Assembly: GCA_951406725.2 (NCBI GenBank) | Contig: OX597820.1 | Coordinates: forward strand, 20,708,001-20,772,000 | Source of the DNA: Octopus vulgaris | Taxonomy: Eukaryota | Reading direction: 5' to 3' | DNA length: 64,000 bases | Shown: positions 809 to 59,115 of the stretch, piece by piece | How positions within the stretch are numbered: position 1 is the stretch's first letter | Layout of the letters: every line of letters starts with the position of its first letter | The notes under the pieces: model-generated | The model's input: the letters and a program-made list of their open reading frames with translations, nothing else | Told to the model about the DNA's origin: nothing | The model's database searches: none | Program-made: the position numbers and the translations under genes

Positions 809-879
809 CTTATGTCGACATCAAAATGCACAAAAATCTTTTAACTGACTGCTCTCAAGGAGAGCAGTCAATATTTAAA

Positions 880-1009
880 TCTAAATATTTAAATCTAACG
901 GTTTTTGTGTGTTTTAAATGGCTTATAAACACCTTCCACGCTGCAATTATTTTCGTTCAAGTACACGATCTCAAATTAGGTCACTTGCTACCCAAGTACA
1001 TCTCCGTAA

Positions 1010-1125: not shown

Positions 1126-1295
1126 GATGATGTGGCTGTGATCGTTTCCGGTTAGGCATAATCCTCTTCCTCTCCTTTTTTTATTTCTGAGACGCTAAAA
1201 ACTATATTAAATGTGTTTCAGAATAGTAGGCTTATCCAACTAGAGCATCTAAAATAATATCTCAAAAGAGAAGTGCTTGTGTCAAAGAGCATTCT

Positions 1296-2912
1296 TTGGA
1301 AAACGACTGCAGGATACCAAAGAAACTTCAAACTGTCGGTTGCTACCTGTTACTTGGAGGTACCATCAAAGGAAGAAAACAAAGAGCAAAGGAAATTTCG
1401 AAAGAAGTAACTTTTTTATGGCAAAAGAAATTAAATTTCCCATATTCATCAATTCAAAATTTACAAGCAAAAGTAGAAGTGTTGAATACCTACGATAAAT
1501 GTGTAAGACGAAGAAAATACGATTCATTGAAAGAAATTTTTGACATCACAAAGGAAAACGGTGAATGGCTGAGCAGTGAGGATAGAAGGTTATATTATCT
1601 TCAAATTGAAAGCAAGGGTCAGGTTGGGTATGCAACTGGAAAGGCTAGTTCCAAAGCTATCCACCCATCCAAAAGAATATAAGTGTCCTTATTGCCAACT
1701 TCAACTAGAGAAACTCCAGTGTCATCGTCAACGACTGAAGCAGAGACTGAAAATGAATATCAAGAGTCCGAAAAATCAGATGAAGAATCCACACAAACAA
1801 GGAGGAAGTATAGCAAAACTGGAACTGCAACCGAATTAGTAATATCTTCCAACTTATCAACTGAATTATCTCAAGATGGAATCAATGTCGAGACTCCTTC
1901 CCAATCTGGCATTTACACATCGACTATCAAAGAAGCTGTTAAACTAAAAACGAAAATGAAGAAAACACTACATTTAGAAAACTGGTCATTGCATTTTGAT
2001 GGAAAACGTATTGATGACCAAGAATACCAAGTGTTAGTTTTAAAGAATGAACAGAGTGAAGTTAAGTTAGAAGCACTCCAATTACTAAACGGAAAAGCCA
2101 ATACTGTTGTGAAAGGAATAACAGCTATTTTAGATGAATACAATTTATGGAACTTCGTAAAGATGATTATCGCTGATACAACGTGTGTGAACACGGGGAA
2201 AAGAAATGGCATTGTCATTCAGTTGCAAAGACTGTTTGCTCAAAAGGGTTTGAAAGAACCGCATTTTATTGGTTGTCAGCATCATATCCTTGATAGAGTT
2301 CTTCGTGCTGTAATGAATAACGAACTTGGAGAAAATAATGTCATTCCCAATAGTTAATATAAAATTCATCCCAGAGCTTCTGTATGATTACGAGAAACTC
2401 CAGGCTAATTTCAAAAATGGTGAAGAAAGGTTTACTGAATCAGCAGGATGGCGAAATGACATGAATTTCTATTTCATTTGACCAGAGGTTTTCGTTTCTT
2501 TAAAGAAACCGGCAAATTTCCTACTGTAAAGTTTCAAAAACTACCCAACTTAAGTAATGCAAAATGGAATTATCGAGCAATACTAGCTCTTTTGGTATTC
2601 ATTCTTCTAGCAGAGAAACGAGTTTTGCTTCTCAATGTTTGTCGATTCATCTCTTACAACTGGGCAGATTTTTGGTTTACTGACCAAATGTTCAATGCAC
2701 ATGATAATCAGAAGTTATGTGGTATCCTGCAAGTTCATAAAAAAGCATTGAACTCTGTAAAAAACCTTTGGAGTCGAGAACCATCAAAAATGGAAATTAC
2801 CAGAACAAATTAGAGAGCAGAACGGGCAATCAAGTGTCTTCACAATCTTTATGATGTTTGTAAAAAAGAAGGAGAAACTTCAGCTTCGATTTATTTTATC
2901 TAACAAACATTA
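1296..2912 (+). pseudogene. hAT-superfamily (hATm-like) DDE transposase, disrupted
   Basis: ORFs 1296-1682, 1683-2357 and 2478-2813 carry LHFDGK, ADTTCVNTG, GCQHHILD (CxxH) and TN*RAERAIK; stops and frameshifts present; no TIRs recognised. Confidence 0.8.
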
Positions 2913-4799: not shown

Positions 4800-5585
4800 C
4801 AGTGGTTTCAAATTTTGGCGCAAGGCCAGCAATTTCAGAGAAAGGTATAAGTCGAGGATCTTTTCCTTTTGAACGGCAGACAATTTCTAGTTAACTAAAC
4901 ACTTTAAAACTTCGTATACTGGTAGAATGTATCAAAATAAAACATTTTTTTCTCTTGGCTTTCTTGAGAAAATTGTAATTTGTTTGTTTAACGTAGTTTA
5001 ATTTTTCGAATTTTAACCAATCCTATGCTGTCTTTTGAGCTAAAATCATTTCCGTACGTATACGGAAAGCGTGTGTATAAATTTCGGTTTTCTTTTACAC
5101 GCGTAACAATTAAATTAATTTAACAATTAAGAAAAGAAAATTAGAGTTAGGGTTAAGTTGAGGGGTAGTGACAGGATGTTGTCTCAGTTTTAGACGCAGC
5201 AAATGATTTTAGCTCAAAAGAGAGCATAGGATTGGTTAAAATTGCCGAAATGCTCAGATTTTCAGACGCAACATCTTACAAACTATAGAATTTTCTCAAT
5301 AAAACCAAGAGAAAATGATGTTTTATAAAAACATTCTACCAGTATACGAAGTTTAAAAGCGTTTAGTTAACTAGAAATTGTGTTGGCATCTGCCGTTCAA
5401 AAGGAAAAGATCCTAAGTCGATTACATCGATTCCAGTGTTCAATTGGTACTTATTTTATTATTCCCGAAAGGAGGAAACGTAAACCCGGCCTCGACAGAA
5501 TTTGAACTGAGAATGTAAAGACGGACGAAATGCCTGTTGGTATTATGCCCAACGAGCTAACGATTCTTCCGGTTTGCCGCCTTAT
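4800..5585 (-). mobile_element. SINE B interrupted by a fold-back DNA transposon
   Basis: SINE B sequence at 4800-4855 resumes at 5414-5585. Confidence 0.75.
4856..5413. mobile_element. Non-autonomous long-TIR DNA transposon (Mutator/Merlin-like MITE)
   Basis: ~200-bp imperfect TIRs starting GGATCTTTTCCTTTTGAACGGCAGA; perfect 8-bp TSD TAAGTCGA at 4848-4855 and 5414-5421. Confidence 0.9.
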
Positions 5586-6502
5586 AGCAAATAAATATTA
5601 ACGAACAGTCCCTTATGTATAAGACAGTAATGTACGAAAAGATGGACAGTCATAAACTAATAAGCAGTTAACGTCCAAATATATTTAGTTGTATCCCCCA
5701 TCTGCTTCTGACGATTCTATAATTATTCCCTACACTTTTGAGTCTGCAAGCTGTGCAGCACTACTTTACAACTTCAGTTGAATCCACCGCCTCTCACTGT
5801 TCCTTATGTATCTCACATAGTATTAAATCGCACTAAACACTTCATCCGAAAACCTTCTATTTCCAGAATCTTTCAAGCTGCAAAGCAACCGAATTGAACC
5901 CAACGGTCTGGAATAATTCGTTGAGTTTATTGGTGCGTACTAATAACGAGGTGGTAGATCTCACGGTTGTAAAAATCGATACTATGGTAAAATTAAGTTC
6001 TAACATTGGCAAGACCCCATATTTGCATAAGGAATCGGTGTAGTCGATTAAATTGTTCTCAGTACCTAATTCAGAGCTTATAAAATTTCAAGCAGATGGA
6101 AGTAAAATTTTACACTGCTTTTCATTGGAAAGTTCCACTCCACTCGTCAGAATGACAATATTTTTCAAGAGAAGAATATGTAAGTGTTAGGCTATCATAC
6201 CGTACCTGCAACATACACAGATCCTATAGAGAAAATAGCACGGACGTGTAGGATGGTTTTCGCCTTTAAAATATTTGAAATGCTGTAAAGGCCACTGGAA
6301 CCATGAGGTACTTTTGAAGCTTTGACGAGTCTTTTTTTACATCCTGCAAAGTGTCCAAAAATCTTCCTTCCCACCAAGCAAGATTGGTGGAGTTGCCGGT
6401 TTAGTCATTGTAACAGGTTGTAATAGGCTACATCTTGCTAGTAGCGCAAGAGCTATCCTGACATGATTGTAATATAACTTATTATGACCTGACCTGACAT
6501 AG

Positions 6503-6556
<54 letters not shown>

Positions 6557-6557
<1 letters not shown>

Positions 6558-6699
6558 TGTTGTGTCTGGGGAGAGTCATTTTCTTTTTGTACCTTGAAAA
6601 TTTTAGGAAAATAAAAATAAGAAATAAGTGGAAATTTTACCGCTGGGTGTGTTACATTATAAGGCGCAAAAAGACAATGACTCTCCCCAGACACAACAG
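6557..6699. repeat. Short fold-back element in (TA)n
   Basis: CTGTTGTGTCTGGGGAGAGTCATT / AATGACTCTCCCCAGACACAACAG, 24 bp perfect and ~39 bp imperfect. Confidence 0.8.
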
Positions 6700-6761
6700 A
6701 ATATGCTTCAACACACGAACTCATATAAATAATCTTGCAAACCAAATCCAAAGATGAAATA

Positions 6762-6801
<40 letters not shown>

Positions 6802-7128
6802 ATGTTGAAAGATGTAAAAGGCCAAACAATGTAAATAGATTTTGAGATGAATTTTTTACAAATATAATTATAAAATTATATTATCTCCGACAAGAAACAT
6901 CTAACCAAGGATAGTTCATTTTTAACCCTGAAGAATGGATTTGTATGTCCCGAACTATTGGATACGCATAAGAACAAAGATTAACAAGAAACTTACCTAT
7001 AGTTTATGTTACCTCATCTTAAGATCTATTTGCATTGTTTGCCCTTTTACATCTTTCAACATTATATTCCATATACAATGCTTTAAGCAAAACTATATAA
7101 TCTGTTATATATATATATATATACATAG

Positions 7129-7200
<72 letters not shown>

Positions 7201-7669
7201 GCTATATTTGGACGTATCTACTCAACAGAATTAAAACTAGGGAGACACCAACTTATAAGAACCAAAGGAGTGAAGATAGTCTTTTTAGGAAATTGCTAAT
7301 GGTGAGAATAGACCCCATTGAATATAAATATTGTTGGACACAACTTCGTATCTGCGTGAGAGTGAGAGAGAGAGAGAGAGAGAGAGAAAGAAAGAAAGAG
7401 AGAGAGAATGTAAATATGAGTGTGTGTGTGTTTTATGAGCAATAATACATAAAATGGTTAAATATCAACTGAAGGATCGGGCACTATATTTAATTAGGGT
7501 ATAAAAATCATGTGTGTGTGATGAGAAAAAATTTCCATAATTGCATGTGTGTATAAATATATTGAGCGATTCTTCAGTTAATGCTTGACCGCTTTATGAC
7601 TCATCGGACTTACAAGACACACATTGATATACATAAGCGCGCGCGTACACACGAACACACGTTTATGTA

Positions 7670-7732
7670 TGTGTATGTATATATATAAATATATATTGAT
7701 CTCTCTGTCTCTCTCTCTCTATATACATATAC

Positions 7733-7795
<63 letters not shown>

Positions 7796-8065
7796 CATAT
7801 ATATATACATATATATATATATACATACATATATATATATATATATATACATATATATACATATACACCTACATGTATATACATATACACCTACGTGTAT
7901 ATACATATATATACATATATATACATATATATATATATACATATATATACATATATATATATGTATATGTATATATATGTATATATGTATGTATATGTAT
8001 GTATATATATGTATATATATATACATACATATATATACATATATACATATATATATACATATATA
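7670..8065. repeat. (TA)n/(TACA)n compound microsatellite
   Basis: Direct reading. Confidence 0.95.
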
Positions 8066-9920
8066 TTTTTTTTTTCTTGTTTCAGGTCAGAGCTGCGGCC
8101 ATGGTGATGCACCGCCATTTTGTGCTACACTGTTATTACGAAGAACCTCCTCTAATATGTGGCACTTGGTGAAGAATGGAGTTTGATATAGCTATTCCCA
8201 TTTGCACCTCTTGCCGTGAGGTAGGTTCATCTGGGACTCTCGACAGGAAGATGTCAAGCTTTGATTTAAAAACCGCTACATCTACTTTGTGCAAGTACCT
8301 CAGACTCTTTGGGAGAATATTAAAAAGCTGTGGGCCCTTGAAACCCAGGCTGTTGCAGAAGCTGGTCCTGAAGCGTGATGGCATTGCTGGGATCTTTGGC
8401 ACTATGCAGTGTCGTCCCGTTCTAGCATTGGTGTAGCTTACAATGCCAAAATTTGGCACAATTCCTTCCAGGATCTTCCAGACATATATTATTGCATACC
8501 TCTTCCGTCTTCTCTCCAGGGAGTAGAATCTTAGCTATTTCAACCTTTCCCAGTAGCTGAGCTGTTGCAAAGAGACGATCTTCTTTGTGAATCTTCTCTG
8601 GATTGCTTCAAGGTCCGCTGTTAATTTCACACTAGTGGGTGACCATAGCTGTGAGCAGTAATCCAGGCGGCTGAGGACGAATGTCCGCCAGAGGACCATC
8701 ATGGTTTCCTTATCTCTGGTTCTGAATGTTCTTAGGATCCATCCAGCCAGTCGTCTGTACTTTGTCGCCGTCCTGGTAATGTGCACTTGGAAAGAGGTAT
8801 CCTCACTCATGTCGATACCCAGGTCCCTCACAGACTTAGGCTCTGTGATTGAAATTCCCTGTGGACCGATGTATCCTGTAAGTTTAATATTCAGTTTTGG
8901 ATGCTGGTAACGCAGGGCCTGGAATTTTTCAGCATTAAACTGCATATTATTATCCTCAGCCCATCTGTAGATTGAGACCAAATCCTGCTGCAAGTGTGCA
9001 ACATCGCTGGGGTTCTGTATTTTCTGCGAGACTTTCGTATCGTCTGCATAGCTTGCCAGAGTGGCTATCCGGGCATTTGAGAGCATATCTGAGAGGGCCA
9101 CTATAAAAAGCAGTGGTCCCAAGACAGTGCCCTGTTGAACACCACTCACTATTTGTGTGTTCATAGAGGTGGCTCTATTAACCACTACTGCCTGACTCCT
9201 ATCATTCAGGAAGTCATGTAACCACACTCCAAGTTTTCCAGCTATGCCGAGGTCACGCAGTTTGTGGCATATCATACCATGATCCACCTTGTCAAAAGCT
9301 TTTGCAAAATCAAGGTAGATTACGTCCACATTTGATTTGTTGAGTAACTGCCTCAACACCCAGTCATAATGTTGTAAGAGCTGGGTCAGGTAGCTCCTAC
9401 CTGGTCGAAAACCATGCTGGGTATCACTCAGCAAGTTATTTTCCTCAAGGAATGCGATTAGTTTCTTTCTGACTATCCGTTCCATGACTTTGCTGATGTG
9501 TGAAGTCAGAGAGATAGGCCTATAGTTTTTGGCATCTGCTCTTCTTCCCCCTTTATGTATTGGGCATATCATTCCCTCCTTCAGCTTGCTTGGCAGTTTG
9601 CCATTTGTAAGAAAGCTCTGGAAGAGAATCTTGAGGGGCTTTGCCAGGGCATGCTTACACGCTTTGAGGAGAATTGCTGGGAAACCATCTGGACCAGCAG
9701 TTGAGTTTGTGTCTACTTCATCTATGGCTAGTAGGACATCTTCTTCACTAATATCAATACATTCTATTGTAGTCGCCTCGCTGGTTATAGGTGAGGCGGC
9801 AAAGAAGTCCGCTGGTTCGTTCACTTGTCTGTGTTCCAACGGGGTGGTAAAGACACTTTTGAACTGGTCATTCAGCATCTCACTGATCTTAGTTGGACTG
9901 TCTGTGAGGGAGCCATCCGC
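8066..9920 (-). mobile_element. 5'-truncated CR1-group LINE, reverse transcriptase and 3' end
   Basis: NYRPISLTS, QHGFRPGRS, YLDFAKAFDKV, QGTVLGP, YADD; one in-frame stop at 8535 then LERRRKRY...VPDEP; poly(A) tail at 8066-8075. Confidence 0.92.
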
Positions 9921-11903
9921 AACCAAGTCAGCCCCTCTGAAATCAACTACTGGGGATCTCATCAAGGACCAAAGCAAGTAAATGGATAGATGGGTGGAGT
10001 ACTACCAGGATCTCTACTCATGAGAGACCACGGTAGCTGAGGCTGCAATCGAGGTTATCAAGATCTTGCCAGTCATGTGTGAACTTGACAGTCTGCCATC
10101 TATAGCGGAGCTCACCAAGGCTATTGACTTCCTAGCAAGTAACAAGGCTCCGGGAAAAGACGGCATCCCCTTAAAGATCATCAAAACCGGCAAAAACACC
10201 ATCCTGCTTCGGCACATTCATGAGCTTCTGTGTCAGTGCTGGAAAGAGGGTACAGTCCCTCAGGATATGCGGGATGCTAACATCATTACGCTTTACAAAA
10301 ACAAAGGTGACCGTGGTGATTGTAACAACTACCGTGGAATATCTCTTCTAAGCACTGTTGGAAAGGCCTCTGCTCGCATTATCCTGTCCAGGCTGCAACT
10401 GCTTGCTTCTCGAATTTATCCAGAATCGCAGTGTGGCTTTAGAAGAAGCAGATCAACTATTGACATGATATTCTCCATACGCCAACTTCAGGAGAAGTCC
10501 AGAGAGCAGAAAATGTCATTATATATGGCTTTCATTGATCTGACAAAGGCCTTTGACTTGGTAAGTAGAAAAGGCCTCTTGATCCTGCTCCAAAAAATCG
10601 GATGTCCACCAAAGCTGCTGAGGATCATGACATCTTTCCATGATGATATGCAAGGCACCATACAGCACAATGGTTCGACATCAGCCGCGTTCCAAATAAA
10701 AAATGGGTAAAGCAAGGTTGTGTCCTTGCTCCTACATTATTTGGCATCTTCTCGCTGCTGCTGTCACATGCCTTTGTGACATCAGATGATGGACGGTTTC
10801 TGCACAGTAGAAGTGATGGGAAACTGTTCAATCTCTCGCGTCTGCATGCCAAGACCAAAATCAGAAGCGTCCTGATCAAGGAGATGCTATTTGCTGATGA
10901 TGCCGCTCTGGTATCACACACAGAAGAAGCCCTACAAAGGCTCATCAACTGTTTTGAGCAAGCATGTGGCAACTTTGGCTTATTTATCAGCCTCAAGAAG
11001 ACCAGCATCATGGGTCAGGCTACATCGACCATCCCAAACATACATATTGGAGACCACAGGTGGAGAGGTTTACCTATCTTGGCTCTACCGTCACCTACAA
11101 CCTATCCCTTGATACTGAGCTCAATATACGCATTGGCAAGGCAGCTGCTGTGATGGCCCAACTCTCCAAACGGGCATGGGACAACAATAAACTGACCAAG
11201 ACCACAAAAATGAAGATTTACCAGGCATGTATACTTAGCACTCTACTGTATGGAAGTGAGACTTGGACGCCATACACACGCCATACGACGCCATACGTCG
11301 CCTAAATATCTTTCACCTGCGCTGCCTCCGGAAAATCCTTCGCATCAAATGGCAGAATCATGTCCCCAACAAAGATGTCCTCAAGCAAGCAGGAATACCA
11401 AGCATGTTTACACTCCTCACACAAAGACGTATGAGATGGCTTCGACATGTTAGCCGTATGGAAGATGGCAGAATTCCCAAGGACATACTCAACGGAGAGC
11501 TTGCTAGGGGCACTAGGTCTGTGGGAAGACCGTTCTTACGATACAAGGATGTTTGCAAAAGGGACATGAATGCCTGCAACATCAATATTACCAACTGGGA
11601 AGCAGTCGCCAGCAACCGTGGAGATTGGCGACGTACCGTAAAAGAGGGAAAACAAAGGAGTGACATAGAGGGAGAGGAAAAATGGAAAGACAAGAAAAGA
11701 CGTCAACAAGAAAGTATGACATTACAACCAGCCAGGCAAAGTCTTCGCTACGTTTGCAGCACATATCAGAGGGAGTGTTTGTCCAGGATAGGACTACACA
11801 GCCACAGCAGGAGATGTATTAGGAAATGAAATGTAAAAGCCGGACTAGATTATTTTATGCGCAACTCCATTGTCTCCCGAGACAAAAAGGATGCCAACAA
11901 CAA
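9921..11903 (+). mobile_element. 5'-truncated RTE-clade LINE, frameshifted
   Basis: KAPGKDGIP, NYRGISLLS, PESQCGFR, FIDLTKAFD, LFADD, LLYGSETW, degenerate C-terminal zinc finger (SRIGLHSHSRRC); (CAA)3 tail. Confidence 0.93.
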
Positions 11904-12193
11904 TATATATGGATTTCGTCGACAGGAAGTGAAACAAATCAATCGTATATATATGTATATATGTAAGTGTATGTGTGTGTCTTTGTGTCTGTGTTTCGCC
12001 CACATCACTGCTTCACAACTGCTGCTCATTTATTTACATCCACAAAACTTACTGGTTTCACAAGAACAAACTAATAGAATAAGTACTAGGCTTATCAACA
12101 TAAAAAAGCACTAAGCTGTGTCTCATATTTTTGTTTGCCCACTCAGTTGTATCTATCAATTTATCTTCATGTGTGTGTGTATCTATATCTATA

Positions 12194-13245
12194 TCTATAT
12201 ATATATATATAACACCCTAATGGGAGCCTTAACTCCCAAATTTTAGTCATTTCTTTTATGATCCAAAGCTAGGTCAAAAGTACTGAATGGATCTTTATGA
12301 AATTTGGAAATTATATTCTAAGCATAAGGGCCATAGCCCCCATGACAATTCATATATTTTTGCTGTTGATGAAATTTTAACCATAGATATTAGATACAAA
12401 TGAAGTAATATTTATATAATTTCATCTTCTTACAAAGTTAGAAAGACTTAACACCCACAATTTTGTCATTTTATCTAAGCAAAAACGAATACAGTTGTGC
12501 TCTTGAAAGCTATAGGGTTACCCGAGCATAAAAGTTGGGCATTATTTCTAATTCAATGGTACAACAGTGTAACAGTTCGCTTTGACATACACTTACATTG
12601 TGATTTCTGCAATGTGCTGCATAAATTGTTAAGTAAATGAGAGGCATCTTTGTCTCCACTGATTCAGTTGCAAAGTGTTGAGTAAAGTTATTTGATTGCA
12701 GACCTCCTTTCAATCTTTTTATTATCACTCGGTCACACATAGTCCTCAGATGGTAACATTGATTACAAGGCCTTCCCAGATGAGTGACTGGTTATTCAAA
12801 AACATTTATAGATTTTAAATTCATTCTGTCCAGTTATGTATCAGTATAGTGGTCATTTGCAAACTCCAGAGGTGACATTTTAATTTCTCCTAAGCCCTCA
12901 CGTCACACAGTTGTTAATGTTGATTTCAGTTGGGTCACGCCCTTACAATTGCTATAGATTCGTAATGCATCTTACGGCTGTGCCTGTCACCTGGATGGCG
13001 AGGAATTCTACATTAGGGGTGGTAACGACTAGGGTAGGGTAACTAACCGCTTATTGTGATCATTCGTCTTTTGGTTTCCATGTAGCACGACTACAATTTT
13101 TTAGGGTGTGTAAAGAGGGATATAACCCTCATCTGCAATTTTGCTGAAATTCGAAACATAGATATTCCAGTTTATTCAGAAAATATAACAGAAAAGTCTA
13201 ATTCTTCAATTGAACATAACCGGGCAACGCCGGGTATCTATGTTA

Positions 13246-19107: not shown

Positions 19108-19890
19108 ATTTACAGTTTGTAGGTAACATAATTTGAAATATATATGATTTAATTTCTGAGTTCTTTGATATCCTTCAATGAAATTTCATCTTTGTTCATC
19201 TTTCCCAGAAAATCCTGTACGTCTTCTAAGAAAGTGAATTGTAAGTGCAGAAAAATTGCTTTACAACATACGACAAACGGCGTACATCTAATTTGAACTG
19301 AGGAGTTAATGTCTGTTTATATCAAATTTTCTCATTGTAATGTATTTCTAGTAATCATTATATCATTTATTTCTGCCGAACCACACAATAGTACTTTGAG
19401 TCAGTCCTGCCTGGTTCCACCTGGGGGTATGAACATTGCCAGCCTCCGGACGATGATGCAGAGCTGAAGACGAAAAGCATATGAAAGTTATTGGCTAACT
19501 CAAACAAAAACAAAGGATCGGAGGTTGGAATTAGTTTATAACGTTAGTTGGGGTCCGATGATTGATCATGCATAGAAATCAATAGATTTCGACTTGACTA
19601 ATTAAGAAACCCTTATACACAGGAAAAAGAGCAAATTGTATTATCACTAGGAAAACATTAATGTGTTATCTATAAATTCCTTCAATGTTTAAAAAATAGT
19701 ATTCGTTCTATATTGCAGATGATTCCTCAAAAGCATTTACTTGAAATTACGGAGATGTACTTGCATAGCAAGTGACCTGATCTGAGATCGTGTGCTGGAA
19801 CGAAAACAATTGCAGCGTGGAAGGTGTTTATAAGCCATTTAAGAAACACACAAAAACCGTTAGATTCACTTCAACAGTTAAATTTAATTT

Positions 19891-19940
19891 TTCAAAATAT
19901 TTTCATCGCTTTGAGACCGCGACCTGTTCACTGACAAAAT
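19891..19940 (-). ncRNA. Variant hammerhead (G3:C8), H2 second copy
   Basis: Reverse complement TTTGTCA-GTGAACA-G-GTCGC..GCGAT-GAAAATATTT-TGAA. Confidence 0.45.
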
Positions 19941-20040
19941 TCTATTATGGGAATTGGTAATTATTAAACAGCTGAAAGAAAATAAATTCAAATATGCTTG
20001 TTATTTCCCTATATTTCATTATGTAGATGCAGCACGGGAT

Positions 20041-20091
20041 TTTGTCAGTGAACAGGTCGCGGTCTCAAAGCGACGAAAATATTTTGACAAA
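20041..20091 (+). ncRNA. Variant type I hammerhead (G3:C8), H2
   Basis: Stem I TTTGTCA/TGACAAA (7 bp), core GTGAACA, stem II GTCGC/GCGAC, GAAA, palindromic stem III AATATT. Confidence 0.55.
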
Positions 20092-20362
20092 TCAAATTTA
20101 ACTGTCGAAGTGAATCTAACGGTTTTTGTGTGTTTCTTAAATGGCTTATAAACGCCTTCCACGCTGCAATTGATTTACTTGAAAAATATTAAGAAAAGGC
20201 AAAATCCCTTTTTGTCTTTCATGTACTTCTATGACAGTTTGCTGGTAAATAATTTGAAGTAATATATTTACTTATTAATTGTTTGCTGAAAATGAAATAT
20301 AGGGAAATAACAAGCATATTTCAATTCATTTTCTTTCAGCTGTTTAATAAATACCAATTCCC

Positions 20363-20410
<48 letters not shown>

Positions 20411-20617: not shown

Positions 20618-21215
20618 AAGGCGGCGAGCTGGTAGAAACGTTAGCACGCCGGGCGAAATGCGTAGCCGTATTTCGTCTACCGTTACGTCCTGAGTTCAAA
20701 TTCCGCCGAGGTCGACTTTGCCTTTCATCCTTTCGGGGTCGATAAATTAAGTACCAGTTACGCACTGGAGTCGATATAATTGACTTAATCCGTTTATCTG
20801 TCCTTGTTTTTCCCTTCTGTGTTTAGCATCTTGTGAGTAGTAAAGAAATAGAAATAGGTATTTCGTCTGCTGTTATGTTCTGAGTTCAAATTCTGCCGAA
20901 GTCAACTTTGCCTTTCGTCCTTTCGGGGTCGATTAGATAAGTACCAGTTACGCACTGGGGTCGATATAATCGACTTAATCCGTTTGTCTGTCCTTGTTTG
21001 TCCCCTCTATGTTTAGCCCCTTGTGGGCAATAAAGAAATAAGAAACGTTAGCACGCCGGTATTTCGTCTGTCTTTACGTTCTAAGTTCAAATTCCACCGA
21101 CGTCGACTTTGCCTTTCCGGAGTCGATAATTAAGTACCAGTTGCGTACTGGAATCGACCTAATCGACTGGCCAACTCCCCAAAAAGTTCGGGCTTTGTGC
21201 CTAGAGTAGAAAAAA
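20618..21215 (+). mobile_element. SINE family B, three-module copy
   Basis: tRNA-like head; repeated module with GCCTTTCATCCTTTCGGGGTCGATAAATTAAGTACCAG (Deu/Nin-like); GTGCCTAGAGTAGAAAA tail. Confidence 0.9.
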
Positions 21216-52799: not shown

Positions 52800-53481
<682 letters not shown>

Positions 53482-53862: not shown

Positions 53863-54190
53863 CTATCCATATGGTATATTTATATTCGACATTTTAAATT
53901 TAGCTGCGTGCCTACATAAGTTCATTAGCTCGCTTCTTTGATTCAAAGAATTATTGTCTTTGAATAAGATGTACATTTTTTCTAATAGACAAAGTTTGCA
54001 CTTGAAATTATTTTTGTAAGCTCCATGCCTGTATGGTGCCGCCCTGTCCAGAATGCTCCATGTCACGTTGAAAGCAAAAACGATGTACATTTTTTCTAAT
54101 AGACAAAGTTTGCACTTGAAATTATTTTTGTAAGCTCCATGCCTGTATGGTGCCGCCCTGTCCAGAATGCTCCATGTCACGTTGAAAGCA
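53863..54190 (-). pseudogene. PLE GIY-YIG endonuclease C-terminal half, with 120-bp tandem duplication
   Basis: WSILDRAAPY...CKLCLLEK...LNQRSELMNLCRH. Confidence 0.85.
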
Positions 54191-54194
54191 AAAA

Positions 54195-54430
54195 CGAAAG
54201 CTCCTGTCCGTTAGAAGGGAAATGTCTAGTGAAAGGAGTAGTTTATAGAGCCAAGGTGCAAGTGGAAGGCTCATCAGAATACAAGACATACACAGGGGCT
54301 TCAGAAAATTCATTTAAAACAAGATTTTATTCTCATAAAAATTCATTTCAATACCCAGAGAATAGGAAGAAGACCAGCCTAGCAAAATATGTCTGGGAAC
54401 TAAAAGAAAAGGAAGCCCCACCTTTCAAAA
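54195..54430 (+). pseudogene. PLE GIY-YIG endonuclease N-terminal half
   Basis: CPLEGKCLVKGVVYRA...YTG...FKTRFYSHKNSF...TSLAKYVWELK. Confidence 0.88.
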
Positions 54431-55291: not shown

Positions 55292-55339
55292 AAAAACTGT
55301 CTGATGAACGGCAACGAGAAACTCAGAGTAACAGATTTT
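55292..55339 (+). ncRNA. Minimal type I hammerhead (H9)
   Basis: Stem I AAAACTGT/ACAGATTTT; CTGATGA; very short stem II CG-GCAA-CG; GAAAC-T-CAG-A-GTA; predicted cleavage after 55330. Confidence 0.72.
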
Positions 55340-58567: not shown

Positions 58568-59115
58568 TTCTTTTCTACAATAGGAACAAGGCCCGAAATT
58601 CTGGGAGAGGGAAACAGTCGATAGGGTTGACCCCAGTACGCAGCTAGTACTTAATTTATCAACCTCGGCGGAAATTGAACTCAGAACATAAAGACAGATG
58701 AAATACCTATTTCTTTACTACTCACAAGGGGCTAAACACAGAGGGGACAAACAGGGACAGACAAACGGATTAAGTCGATTACATCGACCCCAGTGCGTAA
58801 CTGGTACTTAATTTATCGATCCCGAAAGGATGAAAGGCAAAGTCGACCTCGGCGGAATTTGAACTCAGAACGTAGCGGCAGACGAAATACCTATTTCTTT
58901 ACTACCCACAAGGGGCTAAACACAGAGGGGACAAACAAGGACAGACACACGAATTAAGTCGATTACATCGACTCCAGTGCGTAACTGATACTTGATTTAT
59001 CGACCCCAAAAGGATGAAAGGCAAAGTCGACCTCAGCGGAATTTGAACTCAGACCGTAAAGGCAGATGAAATACCGCTAAGCATTTCGCCCGGCGTGCTA
59101 ACGTTTCTGCCAGCT
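58568..59115 (-). mobile_element. SINE family B, three-module copy
   Basis: Reverse complement of head, three modules and tail. Confidence 0.9.

What the first reader, a model, noticed from the sequence alone, without database searches (positions are those of the whole stretch)
20041..20091. Natural G3:C8-swapped hammerhead candidate
Seen: complete type I topology (7-bp stem I, 5-bp stem II, GAAA, palindromic AATATT stem III), but the core reads GUGAACA instead of CUGANGA. The inverted copy at 19891-19940 has the same core. Known: C3 and G8 form a Watson-Crick pair in the active fold, and compensatory swaps can rescue activity. Inference: an amplified family with a covaried core that standard searches would miss. 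Caveats: UUU triplet, extra G after A9, and a 2-nt loop III that requires dimerisation.
Basis: partly seen in the sequence, partly recalled or inferred. Interest (0 to 1): 0.8.

Follow-up and report, generated by a model that had tools for sequence, protein, structure and literature searches.

The report
Core-swapped hammerhead in octopus Penelope retroelement
A highly repeated sequence, likely the end of an octopus Penelope-type jumping gene, carries a hammerhead-shaped RNA motif whose two paired core letters are swapped (G3:C8 instead of C3:G8); it likely still cuts itself slowly, which would show that selection keeps these ribozymes working, but cutting is untested.

Summary
Confirmed. 20041-20091 has every minimal type I hammerhead feature except that C3:G8 reads G3:C8. 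[quoted passage not shown] The predicted cut is 57 nt before an ORF matching an Octopus sinensis protein start (29/31 aa), which overlaps (79%) a PLE-type RT protein. The insertion has a 12-bp target duplication, a 60-nt tail and an inverted partial copy, so the inverted copy is neither independent evidence nor a dimer partner. Across 5,510-13,004 laid contigs in each of four organisms, no other base at C8 reached 1%; G3 probably fell in a blind zone. I found natural U3:A8 and engineered G3:C8 (partial rescue) in print but no natural G3:C8; one key paper was unreadable. This scan noted G3:C8 motifs beside PLE RTs in two other genomes. Most likely a slow, dimer- or protein-assisted ribozyme under selection in source elements; cleavage untested. 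New variant of a known kind; interest 0.5.

The parts
20041..20091 (+). Minimal type I hammerhead motif, copy A, with G3 (20048):C8 (20053), extra G 20055, U17 20084; predicted cut 20084|20085
20025..20172 (+). Copy A: partial pseudo-LTR copy without the tail, inverted relative to copy B. 20025 and 20172 are common edges of homology in all four runs (20024-25 in X8)
   Evidence: table 7
19747..19942 (-). Copy B: 5'-truncated pseudo-LTR plus tail; 5 differences from copy A in 134 nt; shares with A a base (20102 in A) that 97-99.8% of laid depth lacks
19888..19938 (-). Hammerhead motif in copy B; same G3 (19931):C8 core, with C11.1 changed to U and one stem I pair broken
19746..19838 (-). Start of the element's ORF (31 codons, P0002), 57 nt after the predicted cut; 29/31 identical to the N-terminus of Octopus sinensis protein P0004
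19747..19806 (-). 60-nt tail present in copies B and C and absent from inverted copy A (ends at ORF +32 versus +92)
19735..19746 (+). Left target-site duplication (12 bp)
   Evidence: the 12-mer occurs only at 19735 and 20173 in the window
20173..20184 (+). Right target-site duplication (12 bp)
19943..20020 (-). Filler between the two copies: inverted copy of nearby flank 20291-20368 (3 differences in 78 nt), likely captured by template switching
875..1009 (+). Copy C: separate, shorter insertion of the same family, ending at the same tail base; lacks the hammerhead

Best explanation
This is a minimal type I hammerhead motif with a natural G3:C8 swap, lying in what is likely the pseudo-LTR of an octopus Penelope-like retroelement, where it likely still cleaves the element's RNA slowly after 20084, probably as a strand-swapped dimer or with help from the element's protein. 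Shown: the motif, its position 57 nt before the ORF start, the target duplication, tail and inverted copy, wide presence in four organisms, and no second base at C8 at 1% or more. Inferred steps: (1) tandem source elements are transcribed through two pseudo-LTRs. (2) Two motifs pair through the AAUAUU palindrome to rebuild stem III, and G3:C8 stands in for the C3:G8 pair of the active fold, while G8's catalytic 2'-OH is supplied by C8. (3) Cleavage is slow or late, so uncut RNA serves as template. Reverse transcription starts at ORF +32 or +92, and copies therefore keep the whole motif. (4) Selection acts only in source elements; dispersed copies, these two included, decay neutrally.
For: All other core positions, G10.1-C11.1 and both stems are intact. 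Two random hits would fall on positions 3 and 8 and restore a pair with rough post hoc odds of 1/165 to 1/2000. PLE context: the protein chain P0002 to P0004 (29/31) to P0006 (79% over 151 aa); P0006's nearest Atlas clusters carry DUF8422, several with RVT_1, HTH_animal or GIY-YIG (feature score 0.97). Insertion anatomy matches Craig 2021 and Frangieh 2024. In one search, every C-to-x change counted at 1% or more in each run is accounted for by listed rows, and none is at 20053. Non-CpG subfamily changes of 4% or more hit 3 of 9 loop II positions, 6 of 58 downstream positions and 1 of 31 core or stem positions; that one turns U-A into U.G in stem I (loop versus pair-breaking changes p = 0.0085). 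C3G/G8C partly restores a PLE hammerhead (PMC11167929). A G3-C8 variant works better without C17 (PMC3884650, 'data not shown'), and this motif has U17.
Against: No cleavage data. No C3:G8 member was seen, so covariation within the family is not shown. G3 lies 24 nt from the edge of homology, where appears to hide variants (an expected change at 20154 was not listed). Conservation against all unconstrained positions is only p = 0.054 (9/67 versus 0/31), and the 4% cut was chosen after seeing the table. CpG sites in stem II decay at 2-8%, like those outside it. The swap gives only partial rescue, and UUU (1 of 56 in Cervera Fig. S3) and an extra G (1 of 56) may lower the rate further; an extra G harmed a viroid hammerhead (recalled). 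PLE insertion in vitro does not need cleavage, and Naiads spread without canonical hammerheads. The modelled dimer is only 0.6 kcal/mol better than two monomers, and another dimer via stems I and II scores lower. Expression was not shown. Pfam gave no RT hit for the truncated P0006.
Confidence: 0.7

Rival explanations
1. A dead hammerhead relic. It descends from a PLE hammerhead, lost catalysis in a founder element and was amplified by hitchhiking; the restored pair is coincidence, or the stems are kept for a non-catalytic role such as protein binding.
For: Cleavage is dispensable for PAc insertion in vitro and no reads ended at its cut site. Min-HHRs cleave poorly even as dimers. Three mild departures stack up here. 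CpG decay in stem II.
Against: The 3:8 pair belongs to the active fold, so a non-catalytic role would not need it. The only two core changes are exactly complementary. Subfamily changes avoid breaking core and stems.
Confidence: 0.2
2. An overlapping constraint, such as an internal promoter, a splice site or the 22-codon upstream ORF across the motif, forced one change and the other followed. The ribozyme is secondary or only weakly active.
For: The motif sits just after a stretch that reads like a 3' splice site (loose-end consensus before 20025, agreement about 0.5). PLE pseudo-LTRs carry promoters and introns.
Against: No long ORF crosses the motif in the window copies, and searches with the antisense frame found no protein. 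This reading still needs the pair to be restored by selection.
Confidence: 0.08
3. A chance look-alike inside an unrelated repeat, such as a MITE with terminal inverted repeats.
For: The two copies do form an inverted repeat bounded by a target duplication. No Rfam hammerhead hit.
Against: The inverted arms are unequal, one carrying a tail that starts a PLE-type ORF. One motif this strong arose in 60 shuffles. Position and anatomy match PLE min-HHRs.
Confidence: 0.02

Closest known systems
Minimal type I hammerheads (min-HHR) of metazoan Penelope-like elements (Cervera and De la Pena 2014, PMC4209133)
   Same: Type I topology, extra nucleotide between 9 and 10.1, G10.1-C11.1, palindromic vestigial stem III, location in the pseudo-LTR, inverted second copy nearby. 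By my eye count of their Fig. S3, U17 occurs in 24 of 56, UUU in 1 (Crassostrea), an extra G in 1 (Nasonia).
   Different: Core pair is G3:C8. In Fig. S3, 53 of 56 are C3:G8, 2 are U3:A8, 1 is U3.G8 and none is G3:C8 (eye count). All 34 rows of Craig 2021 File S2 are C3:G8.
PAc (Anolis Poseidon) hammerhead and its engineered C3G/G8C mutant (Frangieh 2024, PMC11167929)
   Same: Hammerhead at the pseudo-LTR/ORF junction; two reverse-transcription starts inside the ORF that leave a tail; the same swap partly restores cleavage.
   Different: There the swap is man-made and the ORF starts inside stem II. Here it is natural, the ATG is 57 nt after the cut and the tail is 60 nt rather than 30-40.
Natural U3:A8 hammerheads (Perreault 2011, PMC3088659; Schistosoma Cercyon PLEs)
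   Same: Natural compensatory change of the 3:8 pair.
   Different: U3:A8 needs two transitions via a wobble and keeps pyrimidine-purine order. G3:C8 inverts the order and needs two transversions on the direct path.

Membership tests
Hammerhead ribozyme, minimal type I (PLE min-HHR) | Three-way junction with stems I and II and type I order | tested here: met
Hammerhead ribozyme, minimal type I (PLE min-HHR) | U4 G5 A6, A9, G12 A13 A14, A15.1-U16.1, H17 | tested here: met
Hammerhead ribozyme, minimal type I (PLE min-HHR) | Literal consensus C3 and G8 (CUGANGA) | tested here: not met
   G3 and C8; the published descriptor requires 'cuganga'. Hence filed as a variant, not a plain member.
Hammerhead ribozyme, minimal type I (PLE min-HHR) | Watson-Crick pair possible between positions 3 and 8 | tested here: met
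   G3:C8 in both window copies; no other base at C8 at 1% or more in 4 of 4 runs
Hammerhead ribozyme, minimal type I (PLE min-HHR) | Extra nucleotide 9/10.1, G10.1-C11.1, palindromic stem III | tested here: met
   extra base is G, whereas the >80% consensus is H
Hammerhead ribozyme, minimal type I (PLE min-HHR) | Site-specific self-cleavage 3' of N17 | not testable with these tools
   needs a bench assay; only contigs were laid
Rfam hammerhead families | Covariance-model match | tested here: not met
   no hammerhead family among 11 matches at E<=10 in 19850-20130; a canonical-core but decayed motif at 55301 was also missed, so the swap need not be the cause
Penelope-like element | Pseudo-LTR with 5' truncation, inverted partial copy and one-sided tail | tested here: met
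   compare
Penelope-like element | ORF with PLE-type RT | tested here: met
   Indirect: overlap chain P0002-P0004-P0006; Atlas neighbours with DUF8422, RVT_1, HTH_animal, GIY-YIG; DK, RT1, RT2 and motif-A-like strings (labels recalled). Local Pfam and PDB gave no RT hit.
Penelope-like element | GIY-YIG endonuclease in the same ORF | tested here: inconclusive
   the proteins retrieved end inside the RT; no full-length element could be fetched
Naiad or Hydra PLE clades | N-terminal GIY-YIG (Naiad); identity to published consensus families | tested here: not met
   no GIY-YIG hit in P0003, P0004 or P0006; exact motif and peptide strings absent from Craig 2021 supplements; clade not determined

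The most novel reading that the evidence does not exclude
G3:C8 hammerheads are a hidden, recurrent and catalytically active class in Penelope-like elements. The swap, helped by U17, tunes cleavage down so that the 3' repeat survives until reverse transcription. Searches tied to CUGANGA miss them, so some PLE families scored as ribozyme-less in fact carry one, and the fixed double transversion is in-vivo evidence that PLE hammerhead catalysis is under selection.
Probability: 0.3. Interest if true: 0.7.

Novelty: new variant of a known kind. Interest (0 to 1): 0.5.

Why it matters
Whether PLE hammerheads do anything is open: they cleave poorly, are dispensable for insertion in vitro, and have been suggested to be passengers. 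A compensatory inversion of a pair that belongs to the active fold, kept in a family amplified in four related organisms, is a natural experiment that favours selection on catalysis, and it gives a ready set of four variants to assay. It also extends the natural hammerhead core beyond C3:G8 and U3:A8 and shows a blind spot in standard descriptors. It is not a new system: hammerheads in PLE repeats, their dimers and the laboratory rescue by this swap are all known.

Tried and rejected
No whole genome is held, so copies could not be aligned one by one. The 17-nt scan of metagenome contigs gave 119 loci, none of which continues into the element (best 31 nt). Searches with the antisense frame across the motif, meant to read positions 3 and 8 from predicted proteins, found nothing. 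P0006 found no related loci in viral or prokaryotic contigs. Rfam gave only microsatellite or hairpin miRNA-type matches below gathering score (one search listed 150 of 284). The Atlas search with P0003 was uninformative (score 0.75). Three of 7 listed opposite-strand joints start the sense side at 20081-20089, near the predicted cut. One of them is a stem I fold-back, only 15 of 57 joints were shown, and the site is AT-rich, so this is not counted as evidence. Summed depth (millions at the motif versus 30-46 on the flanks in X1 and X5) is not used as a copy number. Rejected: the inverted copy as independent support or as dimer partner; a MITE reading; Naiad membership.

Full report
Observation. 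Stem I 20041-47/20085-91, core GTGAACA 20048-54, extra G 20055, stem II 20056-60/20070-74, GAAA 20075-78, palindrome 20078-83, U17 20084. Against CUGANGA it differs at exactly two places, C3 to G and G8 to C. A scan allowing any base at 3 and 8 found only this motif and its inverted copy. Sixty shuffles gave 0.067 hits per window with a Watson-Crick 3:8 pair, and one hit in total with stems this long. Stems I and II dominate the predicted fold.

One insertion, not two. Copy B (19942-19747, minus), a 78-nt filler and copy A (20025-20172, plus) lie between two identical 12-mers at 19735 and 20173, the only two in the window. A and B differ at 5 of 134 positions and share a base at 20102 that 97-99.8% of laid depth lacks. 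The filler is an inverted copy of the flank 20291-20368 (3 of 78 differences). B runs 60 nt further than A, and a separate copy at 875-1009 ends at the same base as B. This is the inverted partial copy plus one-sided tail described for Penelope-like elements (PMC8557442). On any one transcript the two copies are sense and antisense, so they would pair with each other rather than form a ribozyme dimer (inference).

Host element. An ATG 57 nt after the predicted cut opens a frame that runs through the tail (P0002). A search of 1.84 billion representatives returned one protein, from Octopus bimaculoides. It led to an O. sinensis protein whose first 31 residues match at 29, and to O. vulgaris P0006, which overlaps that protein at 79% over 151 residues. 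P0006's nearest Atlas clusters carry DUF8422 (feature score 0.97), several with RVT_1, HTH_animal or GIY-YIG, the PLE architecture. Against this, local Pfam and PDB searches gave no RT hit, the link is a chain of gene predictions (P0004 is fused to a methyltransferase), and no full-length element was obtained. The clade is undetermined; exact strings were absent from the Naiad, Chlamys and Hydra files. That the window is octopus is inferred from these matches. In the Anolis element PAc, reverse transcription starts at two sites inside the ORF and leaves the tail (PMC11167929); here the two ends fall at ORF +32 and +92.

Family variation. The stretch is held at 72-94% of its words by 19 of 24 listed runs, in four coded organisms. 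I laid one DNA-scale run of each (4 of 24) on 19990-20200 at 80% likeness: 13,004, 10,301, 5,510 and 6,941 contigs. The table shows 40 of 43 variant rows. Matching the per-run counts by kind of change shows the hidden rows are two T-to-C in X1 and probably one G-to-A in X5. No G-to-C change occurs in any run, and all C-to-x changes are accounted for, none at 20053. So C8 has no alternative at 1% or more, which also excludes a C3:G8 form at that level among contigs 80% alike. G3 itself is less certain: it lies 24 nt from the edge of homology, and an expected change at 20154 was not listed, so the tool seems to hide places near edges. I dropped CpG transitions and three near-fixed differences from the window copy, then counted changes reaching 4% in any run: 3 of 9 loop II positions, 6 of 58 downstream, 1 of 31 core or stem positions. 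That one (20087, 12-34%) turns U-A into U.G. Loop versus pair-breaking changes gives p = 0.0085, loop versus any constrained change p = 0.03, all unconstrained versus pair-breaking p = 0.054; the cut-off was post hoc. CpG sites in stem II decay at 2-8%, like others, so dispersed copies are not under selection; copy B has already lost two pairs. Contig depth is no copy number, but the family is clearly abundant.

The caveats. In Cervera and De la Pena's 56 PLE hammerheads (Fig. S3 as extracted text, counted by eye) an extra base after A9 is the rule, U17 occurs in 24, UUU in 1 and an extra G in 1, and several have a 2-nt palindromic loop III. None of the three caveats argues against identity, although together they may slow cleavage.

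Mechanism. Shown: anatomy, context, C8 invariance. Established: C3 and G8 pair in the active fold and G8 contributes its 2'-OH. Either single change kills a PLE hammerhead and the double change partly restores it, with cleavage needing the element's protein. Min-HHRs cleave weakly as dimers. Inferred: two complementary transversions with all else intact are unlikely by decay (rough post hoc odds 1/165 to 1/2000), so source elements were probably selected for the pair. A slow ribozyme suits an element whose copies must be made from uncut RNA, and the intermediate mismatch could be survived because insertion does not need cleavage. U17 may avoid a G3-C17 trap, suggested by an unpublished remark in PMC3884650. 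The modelled strand-swapped dimer is only slightly favoured (-25.4 versus -24.8 kcal/mol) and a competing dimer scores -30.6, so protein help is plausible. I put active, selected ribozyme at 0.7, dead relic at 0.2, overlapping constraint at 0.08 and chance at 0.02.

Novelty. Natural U3:A8 is known (PMC3088659, PMC4209133). Full-text searches found G3:C8 only as an engineered change. The library lacks most subscription papers; Lunse 2017 was not held and could already list it. What I saw: PMC4209133 main text parts 1-2 of 4, supplement parts 1-2 of 3 and passages; PMC11167929 parts 1-2 of 4, supplements not opened; PMC3088659 abstract, passages and part 3 of 8, figure and supplements unseen; PMC8557442 passages, supplement parts 1-2 of 59 and two term searches; PMC3884650, PMC6765202, PMC8495972, PMC7151607, PMC3376415, PMC10085705, PMC6155905 and PMC13725137 passages only. 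Hammerhead numbering, RT motif labels and the viroid extra-G result are recalled. Two earlier notes of this scan report G3:C8 motifs with an extra core base beside PLE RTs in other genomes; I did not check them, and no note covers this sequence.

Verdict. A real, natural core-swapped variant of the PLE minimal hammerhead, likely active and selected in source elements, untested for cleavage. New variant of a known kind; interest 0.5.

Noticed in passing
window 54190-54430 (+) and 55297-55334 (+): A GIY-YIG-like endonuclease fragment (recognised by eye; no Pfam hit) and, about 900 nt later, a hammerhead-like motif with canonical CUGAUGA core (55301-07), a 4-bp stem III and decayed stem II. It is shaped like the Hydra-clade PLE hammerheads in Craig 2021 File S2: likely a second PLE family with the ordinary C3:G8 core.
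   Followed up: partly
upstream of window 20025, loose ends: The consensus of letters preceding the repeat in other copies (agreement about 0.5) reads like branch point, pyrimidine tract and CAG, ending 14 nt before stem I: a possible intron end, as in Drosophila Penelope.
   Followed up: no
window 19943-20020 and 20291-20368: 78 nt of nearby flank copied in inverted form into the middle of the insertion, suggesting a template jump to the target DNA during integration.
   Followed up: partly
window 20081-20089, joints: Three of 7 listed inversion joints in other copies start the sense side close to the predicted cut; one is a stem I fold-back. A weak hint only.
   Followed up: no
P0004 (XP_029654200.2): An annotated Octopus sinensis protein joins this element's N-terminal 220 or so residues to a methyltransferase domain; probably a gene-prediction fusion, but exonisation is not excluded.
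   Followed up: no
window 20668-21045, 52966-53333, 58662-59075: Tandem 184-190 bp SINE-like units, with further dispersed copies.
   Followed up: no
window 8535-10001 (-) and 10024-11829 (+): Two LINE-type reverse transcriptase remnants lying back to back (type judged by eye).
   Followed up: no
window 1230-2813 (+): Broken ORFs resembling a DNA transposase remnant (judged by eye).
   Followed up: no
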